Assembly: GCF_022846255.1 (NCBI RefSeq)
Contig: NZ_AP025682.1
Length of the DNA stretch: 64,000 nucleotides
DNA from: Escherichia coli
GTDB taxonomy: Bacteria > Pseudomonadota > Gammaproteobacteria > Enterobacterales > Enterobacteriaceae
Strand: one strand, 5' to 3'
Shown: in pieces, positions 40,501 through 43,500 of the stretch
How the letters are laid out: every line of letters starts with the position of its first letter
How positions within the stretch are numbered: position 1 is the first letter of the stretch
Position numbers: made by a program

Positions 40501-43500
40501 GGACCAGAAGTTGTCCTGGCATGCCCAGCGGAACAGTACACACATGTCGCGATGGTTGCGTCCGTCACGTTCACGCATCAGGCGGATATCGTTAGCCCAC
40601 CCAGCAAAATTCGGTTTTCTGGCTGATGGTGCGATAGTCTTCACCATGTCAAACATCCACTCTGCGGCGGTCAGGTCTTCTGCTGTCCCCCACTTGCTGC
40701 CGCTCTGAATTGCAGCATCCGGTTTAACCACAGAAAGATCGTTTTCTGGCTGGTCAGAGGATTCGCCAGAATTCTCGGACGAATAATCTTTTCTTTTTTC
40801 TTTTGTAATAGTGTCTTTTGTGTCCCCCTGTTTTGAGGGATAGCAATCCCCCAATTTGAGGGATGTTTTATCCCTCGTTTTAGGGGATTTTCCCTCGTTT
40901 TGAGGGATACACCATTCTGAGATGTTTTTATTTGGTCCAAACATGCCGCCTTGCTGCTTGATAATATTCATTCTGACGAGTTCTAACTTGGCTTCATTGC
41001 ACCGTTTGACAGGTAACTTTGTAATCTCGCTAAGTTGAGAATCGGTGATTCTGTCCATTGGTTTATTCCACCCATAGGTTTTACGCAGAATGGCAAGCAG
41101 CACTTTAAACTGTCGCTTGGTCAGATCTGCGCCTGAATAAGCCTCAAGCAGCATATTTGATAGTCTGGCGTAACCATCATCGAGATCTGCCACATTACGC
41201 TCCTGTCCGGTAAAGTTACCTCTGCCGAAGTTGAGTATTTTTGCTGTATTTGTCATAATGACTCCTGTGGATTGATCCAGTCTTTCTACATCAGGCCTCA
41301 AAACTGTTGCAGCAGTCTTGAGGCTTTTCTTTTGTCAGCACCATGGCTACTTTCTTTGCTAGCTTTGCTAATTCCTCGTCTTCAACACCCCACTCCAGCA
41401 CAGCCAGAAGCATGGCCATCTTTGGGATAAAGCTGTCTTTCCATCGCGAAATTTGCGATTCATTAATCCCTAATGCATCAGCAACCTTTCGCTGACCACG
41501 TACAGCAATTCGATTCAGGATGTTGCTTGTGATTGCATTCGCTTTCTTGCGAGTACTTGTAAGTTGCATATGTAAGTATTTCCTTAACAAATAAGAAGTT
41601 ATACGCACCAACTGATGCGCGTTGTATTCCCGCATTTCGGCGGGAATAAGGACCATGACTGTTAAAGAGCAATTTGCTTATGCCGCTTTGCGATAAGCAC
41701 TTTCTTGATACTTCAGGGCGCCAGCTGTAACGACTTCCAGTCGATAGGCGTCTTTCTCTGGGATGACTTCCTTCCACTGAGAGACTGCTGCATCGCTAAT
41801 GCCTAACGCTTTAGCTACCGCACGCTGGGTTCCGAAGTGGTCGATAACATCTTTCTTGTACATAGACTCGCTCCGAAATTAAAGAATACTTAAATTATCT
41901 ATCAAAGGAATCTTAAGTCAAGTTTATTTAAGATGTCTTAACTATGAATACACAACTGATGGGTGAGCGTATTCGCGCTCGCAGAAAAGAACTTAAGATT
42001 AGGCAGGCTGCCCTTGGCAAGATGGTTGGCGTGTCTAATGTTGCTATTTCCCAATGGGAGCGTTCTGAAACTGAGCCCAATGGCGAAAACCTATTGGCTT
42101 TAGCCAAGGCTTTACAGTGCTCCCCTGATTACTTGTTGAAAGGAGAAGATAGTCTTTCAAACATTGCCTATCACAGCAGGCATGATCCAAGAGGTTCGTA
42201 TCCTCTAATTAGTTGGGTAAGCGCAGGATGTTGGATGGAAGCTGTAGAGCCATATCATAAGCGTGCAATAGATAACTGGTACGATACAACCGTAGATTGT
42301 TCAGAAGATTCGTTTTGGCTGGACGTAAAGGGTGATTCGATGACGGCTCCAGCCGGTCTTAGCATCCCGGAAGGGATGATAATACTAGTCGATCCTGAAG
42401 TAGAACCTCGTAATGGGAAGCTGGTAGTGGCAAAGCTCGAAGGAGAAAACGAGGCAACTTTCAAGAAGTTAGTTATTGATGCTGGCAGAAGGTTTCTAAA
42501 ACCACTTAACCCACAATATCCGATGATTGAGATCAACGGGAACTGCAAAATCATCGGTGTAGTTGTCGATGCAAAAATAGCAAACCTTCCATAAGGGGCA
42601 TTCGCCCCTTTTTTTCTTTCCTTTAAAAATCAAAGCAAAACTTAAACTTCGCAATAAAATTTAAGTTTTCTTCAAAAACGCCCTTGACCAACAATTAAAG
42701 AAATCTTAAATTTAAGTCATCAGCAGGACGCTGGTAGCCAAACGGAACAGATTGGCAGGCTCTTTAACATTGATGGGATTGTCCCGCCGAAATGCGGGAA
42801 CCAAAGAGTAGTTGGCTTTGGGGTGACGTGAAGTGCAGCTGCACGACGGCAACCGGAAGATAAGCACCCGGCGCGTCACCGCCAAAGTCAATCATCGGAG
42901 GTCAACATGGCAGTAGTCATTACATATCTGGCTGACGATAACGCCAGAAATCGCCGCAGAGCACGCAGACAGGCTCAACGTGAGCAGGCAATGCAAGAAC
43001 AGCGACTGGCGCGAAAAATTGCGCTAAAGCTCTCTGGTTGCGTCAGAGCAGACAAAGCAGCATCACTCGGAAGCCTTCGCTGCAAGAAGGCAGATGAATG
43101 CAGTGGAAGTATTTGCCTGCCAAACGTAGCCATTTACGCGGCAGGCTACCGGAAATCAAAACAACTGACGGCGAGATGATAAATTCATTTGCTAATTACT
43201 TGTTTTTGCCATGCTTATCCTGAGCGATAAGTTCATCCATAAGGCTGTCTGCCTTCCCGGCAAACCTAATGTAGCACTCATGCCTATAGCTTTCAGGGAT
43301 AACGAAACGGTCGGTATCAGGATATCCAACAGCAGGAGGCCTTCGAACGAGGAGTCCTTTTTTGAGCAATGAAATTGATTCATGAGCTCCCTTTTCCGTT
43401 TGTAGCTGGTTATTAGCGGCTACAGCGAATGCCAAATACGCTCTTTCTCCAAGAGTTAATGAATCAAACAAATCTTGCACATATTTTTCTTCTTTAGATT

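What the first reader, a model, noticed from the sequence alone, without database searches (positions are those of the whole stretch)
41629..42798. Matched nutL / nutR sites with identical boxA and boxB flanking the immunity region
The same boxA-like GCTCTTTAACA followed by the hairpin CCCGC-CGAAAT-GCGGG occurs once before N (42759..42798, + strand) and once between cro and cII (41629..41670, - strand), exactly where lambda places nutL and nutR. This supports calling the 90-aa arginine-rich ORF the N antiterminator, and shows the boxB differs from lambda's as I recall it.
Basis: partly seen in the sequence, partly recalled or inferred. Interest (0 to 1): 0.3.

Follow-up and report, generated by a model that had tools for sequence, protein, structure and literature searches.

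The report
HK620-type nutL/nutR sites with N gene

Summary
GCTCTTTAACA followed 13-15 nt later by CCCGCCGAAATGCGGG occurs only twice in 64 kb. One copy lies on the + strand between pL and the 90-aa N gene. The other lies on the - strand between cro and cII.

The ORF is an N protein by Pfam and PHROG, and is 97% identical to phage HK620 N. nutL is identical to HK620's annotated "putative nutL", and nutR differs at one spacer base.

Comparison supports an N-boxB partnership:
- Phages with the same phi21/P22-like immunity region but a phi21-type arginine-rich motif (ARM) carry phi21-type boxB at both sites.
- Phages with this ARM carry this boxB at both sites, across four unrelated immunity modules (75 of 80 viral contigs).
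- Diverged N proteins that keep the ARM core NARNRRRA(R/K)R keep the boxB core CCGCCGAAAUGCGG.

boxA equals the E. coli rrn leader boxA. The boxB loop (C-GAAA-U) differs from those of lambda, P22 and phi21. I found no biochemical study of it.

The module is common: 486 of 5426 complete E. coli genomes carry it. Verdict: a correct call of a known, previously annotated system, of low interest. The only open point is how this boxB/ARM class is recognised structurally.

The parts
42759..42799 (+). nutL. boxA GCTCTTTAACA (42759-42769), 12-nt spacer, boxB hairpin UCCCGC-CGAAAU-GCGGGA (42782-42799).
   Evidence: Identical to the annotated nutL of HK620. About 40 nt downstream of the pL -10 hexamer.
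41625..41670 (-). nutR. boxA GCTCTTTAACA (41670-41660), 15-nt gap to the 16-nt boxB core (11 nt unpaired), boxB hairpin with a 9-bp stem (41648-41625; core 41644-41629).
   Evidence: One spacer base different from the annotated nutR of HK620. Starts 8 nt after the cro stop codon.
42907..43179 (+). N antiterminator gene (90 aa). ARM DDNARNRRRARRQAQREQA at residues ~10-28, a phi21-type central segment (34-63) and a P22 gp24-type C-terminus. GGAGG Shine-Dalgarno sequence at 42896-42900.
42684..42712 (+). pL-like promoter (TTGACC, 17 nt, TAAATT) driving the nutL-N transcript.
   Evidence: Aligns with the annotated pL/OL1 of phi21 and HK620.
41894..41921 (-). pR-like promoter (TTGACT, 16 nt, GATAAT) driving the cro-nutR-cII transcript.
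   Evidence: position as in phi21.
41678..41863 (-). cro (61 aa, P22_Cro family); nutR follows it.
41944..42594 (+). cI/c2 repressor (216 aa, HTH_3 + Peptidase_S24), followed by the tIMM terminator at 42593-42610. Together with cro this is the immunity module bracketed by the two nut sites.
   Evidence: 86% identical to the phi21 region and 82% to the P22 region.
41291..41569 (-). cII (92 aa from ATG 41569), the first gene downstream of nutR.
   Evidence: Pfam Phage_CII 2.4e-44, covering profile positions 1-91. The mechanical 121-aa ORF from 41656 would overlap boxB and is probably not the real start.
42811..42892 (+). Long leader hairpin between nutL and the N ribosome-binding site. Inferred counterpart of the lambda N-leader RNase III structure.
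   Evidence: z = -3.8. The same architecture is predicted in phi21 (z = -5.4) and P22 (z = -2.6).
41603..41620 (-). Hairpin just downstream of nutR, at the position HK620 annotates as tR1. Inferred first target of antitermination.
44326..44347 (+). Intrinsic-terminator-like site in the leftward operon, downstream of N. Inferred tL-type target.
   Evidence: 8-bp stem followed by TTTTTT.
39323..39346 (-). Intrinsic-terminator-like site in the rightward operon, downstream of P. Inferred tR2-type target.
   Evidence: 8-bp stem followed by TTTTATTT.

Best explanation
These are the nutL and nutR sites of an intact-looking lambdoid prophage, and they are cognate to the adjacent 90-aa N protein. The proposed mechanism is as follows. 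Transcripts from pL (+ strand) and pR (- strand) each contain boxA followed by the boxB hairpin. The N-terminal arginine-rich helix of N binds the boxB loop and upper stem. The rrn-consensus boxA recruits NusB/NusE. The central part of N (phi21-type) binds NusA, and the C-terminal part (P22 gp24-type) binds RNA polymerase. The modified polymerase then reads through terminators downstream: the tR1 region and a tR2-like site on the right, and tL-like sites on the left.

Shown here: the anatomy, the family membership of N, identity to HK620's annotated nut sites, and co-inheritance and co-variation of ARM type with boxB type across phages.

Inferred from established knowledge of lambda, P22 and phi21: RNA binding, Nus-factor use and terminator read-through.
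For: - Exact paired motif, unique in the window, forming a stable hairpin.
- Positions relative to pL, N, cro and cII match the annotated lambda, phi21 and HK620 sites.
- The ORF is an N protein: Pfam N_peptide 2.1e-15, PHROG 271 at 9e-34, 97% identical to HK620 N.
- ARM and boxB covary. phi21 and HK629 share this immunity region (~87%) and boxA, but have ARM TAKSRYKARRAEL with boxB CUCAACCUAACCGUUGAG (nutL) and CACCUCUAACCGGGUG (nutR). The window, N7, HK620 and HK140 have ARM NARNRRRARRQ with UCCCGCCGAAAUGCGGGA at both sites. The C-terminal module of N assorts independently. mEp213's first N has lambda's ARM and lambda's boxB at both sites.
- Of 80 IMG/VR contigs with this N, 75 have exactly one boxB upstream of N and one inverted across the immunity region. 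They span four unrelated repressor/cro modules. None has a different hairpin at one of the two sites.
- Diverged N proteins that retain NARNRRRA(R/K)R retain CCGCCGAAAUGCGG. The outer stem pairs change U-A to C-G or U.G.
- boxA is identical to the rrn leader boxA TGCTCTTTAACAA, present about 7 times per E. coli genome upstream of 16S rRNA.
- Neither hairpin is followed by a U-run, so they are not intrinsic terminators.
Against: - There is no experimental evidence for this ARM/boxB class. GenBank labels the HK620 sites 'putative', and I found no binding or reporter study in the searchable literature.
- The inner four stem pairs and the loop never vary, so structural covariation is weak: 2 pairs with compensatory change, and 30 of 500 shuffles reach the observed score.
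- Expression of N in this prophage cannot be assessed from sequence.
- Some phages (mEp213-type) carry this N without its boxB, so N presence does not always imply cognate sites.
Confidence: 0.9

Rival explanations
1. The two copies are a chance or neutral inverted repeat left by recombination at the borders of the immunity module, with no RNA function.
For: The borders of homology to HK620 and phi21 fall at or next to boxA. Conserved junction sequences could therefore persist simply as recombination linkers. boxA alone is not statistically unusual.
Against: The 16-mer is expected 0.06 times by chance. It is invariant at both sites in 75 of 80 contigs across four different immunity modules. 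It switches type together with the N ARM. Its orientation keeps boxA 5' of boxB on each transcript.
Confidence: 0.02
2. The hairpins act as transcription terminators or as palindromic DNA binding sites, for example for a repressor or CII, rather than as N-binding RNA.
For: They are perfect G+C-rich inverted repeats lying between genes. The lambda tR1 region overlaps nutR.
Against: No U-tract follows either hairpin, and the terminator scan does not call them. The cI/cro operators of this module have a different sequence and location. A DNA palindrome would not need boxA at a fixed distance on the transcript's 5' side. The hairpin type tracks the N ARM, not the repressor type.
Confidence: 0.03
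3. The sites are genuine nut sites, but the system is silent or decayed in this prophage, so nothing happens here.
For: Defective relatives exist. L014 has lost nutR through the replication and nin region by deletion, and L025 and L078 have rearranged leaders. Expression cannot be read from DNA.
Against: In the window N is full length. Both nut sites, pL, pR, cI, cro, cII, O with 4 ori iterons, P, and the large head and tail ORFs are present. The sequence is 99.8% identical to copies in many genomes.
Confidence: 0.1

Closest known systems
Coliphage HK620 N / nutL / nutR (GenBank AF335538; Clark et al. 2001, J Mol Biol 311:657, as cited in PMC2629481)
   Same: nutL is identical over the aligned site and nutR differs at one spacer base. 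N is 97% identical and also 90 aa. HK620 homology runs from cII to boxA of nutR (window 41249-41670) and from the pL -10 hexamer through N (42712-43175).
   Different: The immunity module between the nut sites is unrelated. HK620 has a 238-aa cI plus hkaS and its own cro; the window has a P22 c2/phi21-like repressor and cro. HK620 is a P22-like podovirus, whereas this prophage has lambda-like long-tail genes.
Phage phi21 N-nut system (OL657228, annotated nutL/nutR/boxA; also HK629, mEp235, DE3)
   Same: The cI-cro module is ~87% identical. boxA is identical at both sites. The N central segment LARKIALKLSGCVRADKAASLGSLRCKK is identical. The layout is the same.
   Different: The ARM is TAKSRYKARRAELIAERR rather than NARNRRRARRQAQREQA. 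The boxB hairpins have a CUAACC-type loop rather than CGAAAU. phi21's C-terminus is lambda-like, while the window's is P22-like.
Salmonella phage P22 gp24 (N) and its nut sites
   Same: The C-terminal 24 residues are alike: GSICLPNVAIYAAGYRKSKQLTAR in the window against GSVLLPGVALYAAGHRKSKQITAR in P22. The ARM scaffold NA(K/R)(T/N)RR.(E/A)RR is shared. P22 nutR boxB CCGCCGACAACGCGG resembles the window's CCGCCGAAAUGCGG, including a pyrimidine-pyrimidine mismatch closing the purine-rich loop.
   Different: The P22 loop core is the pentaloop GACAA, whereas the window has GAAA with no fifth nucleotide. The central part of N is unrelated.
Phage lambda N / nutL / nutR
   Same: The gene order and nut positions are the same. 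The ARM shares A, R, RR at the aligned invariant positions. The boxA-spacer-boxB order is the same.
   Different: Lambda boxA is CGCUCUUA, which is not the rrn consensus. Its boxB is GCCCUGAA(A/G)AAGGGC with a 5-nt loop. Lambda N is 107 aa, has Trp18 in the ARM (absent here) and a different centre and C-terminus.
E. coli rrn leader boxA (ribosomal antitermination)
   Same: GCTCTTTAACA is identical to the rrn leader boxA TGCTCTTTAACAA. nutR matches 12 of 13 positions.
   Different: The rrn system uses no N protein. Here boxA is coupled to an N-specific boxB.

Membership tests
Lambdoid N/nut antitermination system | boxA (CGCUCUU(U)A-type) lies 5' of a short hairpin (boxB) on the same transcript, separated by a short spacer. 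| tested here: met
   boxA, then 13 or 15 nt, then a 6-9-bp hairpin, on both early transcripts.
Lambdoid N/nut antitermination system | Two sites: one between pL and N, one between cro and cII. | tested here: met
   The same placement is annotated in lambda, phi21 and HK620.
Lambdoid N/nut antitermination system | [quoted passage not shown] | tested here: met
   Pfam PF25694 at 57.5 bits against a 27.9 cut-off. PHROG 271 at 9e-34. The ARM aligns with those of lambda, P22 and phi21.
Lambdoid N/nut antitermination system | boxB type is specific to the N ARM type (a cognate pair). | tested here: met
   Four ARM classes (lambda, P22, phi21, this one) each have their own boxB. The C-terminal module and the immunity module assort independently.
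Lambdoid N/nut antitermination system | Terminators downstream of each nut site that N must override. | tested here: inconclusive
   Consensus scans find terminator-like sites at 44326-44347 (+) and 39346-39323 (-), and a hairpin at HK620's tR1 position. Rho-dependent sites cannot be predicted with these tools.
Lambdoid N/nut antitermination system | N binds boxB RNA and, with NusA/B/E/G, makes RNA polymerase termination-resistant. | not testable with these tools
   Requires binding and reporter assays. No published test of this ARM/boxB class was found.
HK620-type N/nut specificity class | boxB UCCCGCCGAAAUGCGGGA at both sites together with ARM NARNRRRARRQ. | tested here: met
Lambda/P22-class boxB (GNRA-like pentaloop with one extruded base) | A 5-nt loop, GAAAA/GAAGA in lambda or GACAA in P22, closed by a Watson-Crick pair or, in P22 nutR, a C.C mismatch. 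| tested here: not met
   The loop is 6 nt, CGAAAU, that is GAAA flanked by C and U. Whether it adopts a plain GNRA tetraloop fold is not testable here.
phi21-class boxB | Hairpin with a CUAACC-type loop, bound by ARM TAKSRYKARRAEL. | tested here: not met

The most novel reading that the evidence does not exclude
The HK620-class boxB may be a fourth structural solution to N-boxB recognition: a true GAAA (GNRA) tetraloop closed by a C.U mismatch, with no extruded loop base. From memory, not tested here, the extruded base in lambda contributes to NusA-dependent complex assembly. If it is absent, this class might rely more on its rrn-consensus boxA and NusB/E, or use C7 or U12 as the flipped-out base. 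It could also supply an ARM-hairpin tethering pair orthogonal to lambda-N/boxB. Nothing here excludes this reading. Nothing beyond the loop sequence and the absence of Trp18 in the ARM supports it.
Probability: 0.25. Interest if true: 0.35.

Novelty: already known. Interest (0 to 1): 0.12.

Why it matters
The main value is for annotation. Most of the best-matching RefSeq genomes still call this N gene "hypothetical protein", and none of the rows listed carries a nut feature. The module is nevertheless present in about 9% of complete E. coli genomes (486 of 5426).

The comparison also gives a clean natural example of modular evolution. N is built from three independently assorting segments: the ARM, a centre and a C-terminus. 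The ARM is always inherited with both of its boxB copies, even though an exchangeable immunity module of 1.1-1.7 kb lies between them. boxA sits at the recombination junction.

The ARM/boxB class itself seems never to have been studied biochemically. It could be a useful orthogonal RNA-tethering pair. This is an incremental point, not a surprise.

Tried and rejected
- Rfam (E-value mode, 38000-47000) has no nut/boxB family. It found only the cIII thermoregulator.
- NCBIfam has no model that hits N.
- A PDB sequence search gave only spurious RNF168 hits, so no structure prediction was attempted; N is intrinsically disordered.
- The HK620 genome paper is not in the held library. I therefore rely on the GenBank feature table.
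- Literature searches for an experimental study of this ARM/boxB class found none. H-19B N, which has been studied, has a different ARM, RSRRRER (PMC3526286).
- RNAalifold on the N-leader of four phages failed because the alignment was poor. I folded each leader singly instead.
- I considered that mEp213, which has the same N but no upstream boxB, contradicts ARM-boxB coupling. It does not. That N is a second, orphan copy downstream of a lambda-type N that has matching lambda boxBs.
- I considered L014 (nutL only) as a possible mixed-specificity case. It is a deletion derivative lacking the whole nutR-to-nin region.

Full report
**Observation.**
The sequence at the stated coordinates is as described. 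CCCGCCGAAATGCGGG occurs at 42783-42798 (+) and 41629-41644 (-), and nowhere else in the 64-kb window even with two mismatches. The chance expectation is 0.06, and 0 of 100 shuffles gave two hits. GCTCTTTAACA occurs at 42759-42769 (+) and 41660-41670 (-). On its own this 11-mer is not remarkable: 24 of 100 shuffles gave two or more hits at up to one mismatch.

Aligned, the two sites share boxA, a partly conserved spacer of 13 or 15 nt, and an identical 19-mer, TCCCGCCGAAATGCGGGAA. As RNA each forms a hairpin of 6 bp (nutL) or 9 bp (nutR) with a 6-nt loop, CGAAAU. The isolated boxB folds at -10.5 kcal/mol with z = -3.8. Neither hairpin is followed by a U-run, and the terminator scan does not call them.

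**Context.**
The gene order on the window is:
- O, 40357-41258 (-), containing four ori iterons
- cII, 41291-41569 (-)
- nutR
- cro, 41678-41863 (-)
- pR, 41921-41894 (-)
- cI, 41944-42594 (+), with a terminator at 42593-42610
- pL, 42684-42712 (+)
- nutL
- N, 42907-43179 (+)
- sieB, 43196-43777 (-)

These assignments rest. Lambda's own record places nutL between OL1 and N, and nutR between cro and cII. The phi21 and HK620 records do the same.

The mechanical 121-aa ORF that starts at 41656 would overlap nutR. The CII profile is fully covered by the 92-aa version that starts at 41569, so nutR is intergenic.

**The ORF is N.**
It hits Pfam N_peptide at 2.1e-15, above the curated cut-off, and PHROG 271 "anti-termination protein N-like" at 9e-34. 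It is 97% identical to HK620 N, which is also 90 aa. It is preceded by GGAGG six bases before the ATG.

**Already annotated.**
GenBank AF335538 (phage HK620) carries features "nutL; putative N-utilization leftward" and "nutR". The window's nutL is identical to that nutL, and its nutR differs at one spacer base. The same N-plus-nutL stretch, at 97% identity or more, is found in HK140, HK630, ECP1, JEP4, N7, CUS-3, IME10 and Stx-converting phages. Of 5426 complete E. coli genomes, 486 hold at least 80% of 41560-43185, and the best match is 99.8%.

**Evidence that boxB is N's partner.**
Phi21 and HK629 share about 87% identity with the window across cro, cI and pL, and have the same boxA at both sites. 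Exactly from the spacer onward their nut sites switch to a different boxB: CTCAACCTAACCGTTGAG in nutL and CACCTCTAACCGGGTG in nutR. Their N proteins have a different ARM, TAKSRYKARRAELIAERR.

The C-terminal module of N assorts independently of the ARM. N7 combines this ARM with a phi21/lambda-type C-terminus. HK629 combines the phi21 ARM with this P22-type C-terminus. mEp213's first N has lambda's ARM and lambda's boxB at both nut sites.

I then surveyed 80 IMG/VR contigs encoding an N at least 96% identical to this one. Of these, 75 have exactly one boxB about 124 nt or more upstream of N and one inverted copy across the immunity region. The DNA between the two copies falls into four unrelated modules of about 1138, 1681, 1724 and 1215 nt, each with a different repressor and cro. 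The five exceptions are:
- two mEp213-type orphan second N copies
- two rearranged leaders
- one deletion derivative

No contig has one nut site of this type and the other of a different type.

A pattern scan for boxA...CGAAAT in viral contigs found more diverged N proteins, for example MTIVMTILASDNARNRRRAKRAAEREQ. These keep the ARM core and keep CCGCCGAAATGCGG, while the outer stem pairs change U-A to C-G or U.G. Formal pair counting gives 93.7% of cells paired and two pairs with compensatory change, but only modest significance: 30 of 500 shuffles reach the observed score. The loop and the inner four pairs are invariant. That pattern fits sequence-specific recognition, but it is weak as purely structural evidence.

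**Mosaic junctions.**
HK620 homology covers window 41249-41670 and 42712-43175. Phi21 homology covers 41648-43098. The two overlap at boxA of nutR. So boxA, which is identical in all these phages, lies at the junction between the immunity module and the nut-specificity module.

**Comparison with known boxA and boxB.**
boxA here equals the E. coli rrn leader boxA, TGCTCTTTAACAA. I confirmed that this sequence occurs about seven times per genome, upstream of 16S rRNA. Lambda's boxA is the weaker CGCTCTTA, and rrn boxA binds NusB:NusE more tightly than lambda nut boxA (PMC2800207).

The boxB sequences compare as follows:
- lambda: GCCCTGAA(A/G)AAGGGC
- P22 nutL: GCGCTGACAAAGCGC
- P22 nutR: CCGCCGACAACGCGG, which has a C.C mismatch closing GACAA
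- window: CCGCCGAAATGCGG, which looks like P22 nutR without the third loop base, leaving GAAA closed by C.U

The ARM lacks lambda's Trp18 but keeps the aligned A, R, RR positions. Whether the loop is a plain GNRA tetraloop cannot be tested here. I found no structural or biochemical work on this class. H-19B N, which has been studied, has a different ARM (PMC3526286).

**Mechanism.**
The following is inferred from established knowledge of lambda, P22 and phi21. The pL and pR transcripts present boxA and then boxB. N's ARM binds boxB, NusB/E bind boxA, the central region of N engages NusA and its C-terminus engages RNA polymerase. The modified polymerase then reads through the tR1-position hairpin (41603-41620), a tR2-like site (39346-39323, -) and tL-like sites (44326-44347, +).

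**Verdict.**
The feature is already known and annotated elsewhere, and is very common. Interest is low. The only open point is the uncharacterised recognition mode of this boxB/ARM class.

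Noticed in passing
window 42811-42892 (+): A long, roughly 20-bp-based hairpin fills the leader between nutL and the N ribosome-binding site (z = -3.8). The same architecture is predicted in phi21 (z = -5.4) and P22 (z = -2.6). It is probably the counterpart of the lambda N-leader RNase III site.
   Followed up: partly
L006 (mEp213, JQ182733) 1121-1453 and 2606-2878; L049, L063: Phage mEp213 carries two N genes. One is a lambda-ARM N next to pL, with lambda-type boxB at both nut sites. The other is a second, HK620-type N 1.1 kb downstream, with no cognate boxB found in the ~8 kb fetched around it (L049). This is an orphan N of a second specificity.
   Followed up: partly
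window 41648-41670 (boxA of nutR) and 42712-42769: Homology to HK620 and homology to phi21 end or overlap exactly at boxA. The invariant boxA seems to act as the recombination junction between the immunity module and the nut-specificity module.
   Followed up: partly
window 40825-40909: Four 18-nt iterons (CCCTCGTTTTGAGGGATA-like) spaced 20-24 nt apart inside the O gene. This is a lambda-type ori.
   Followed up: partly
window 44802-44860 (+): Rfam Lambda_thermo (the cIII thermoregulator) matches at 88.5 bits, E = 4e-21, at the start of the cIII ORF.
   Followed up: no
window 36514-36669 (-): Two adjacent tRNA genes, Thr(TGT) and Asn(GTT), lie inside the prophage between the nin/Q region and the late genes.
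   Followed up: no
window 41291-41656 (-); L003 642-1007; L005 511-876: Several phage records (N7, HK140) annotate cII/C1 as the 121-aa ORF that runs through the nutR boxB. The 92-aa form fits the CII profile end to end, so the long form is probably an annotation artefact.
   Followed up: partly
RefSeq E. coli genomes (hits H71-H82): In most of the best-matching RefSeq genomes the N gene is labelled 'hypothetical protein'. Only some carry 'transcriptional antitermination N peptide'. Among the rows listed, no nut features are annotated.
   Followed up: no
L014 (IMGVR_UViG_2537562092_000002) 2436-2957: A defective relative. Its cro is fused in frame to unrelated sequence, and the region from nutR through O, P and nin is missing, with Q-like and lysis genes directly adjacent.
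   Followed up: partly
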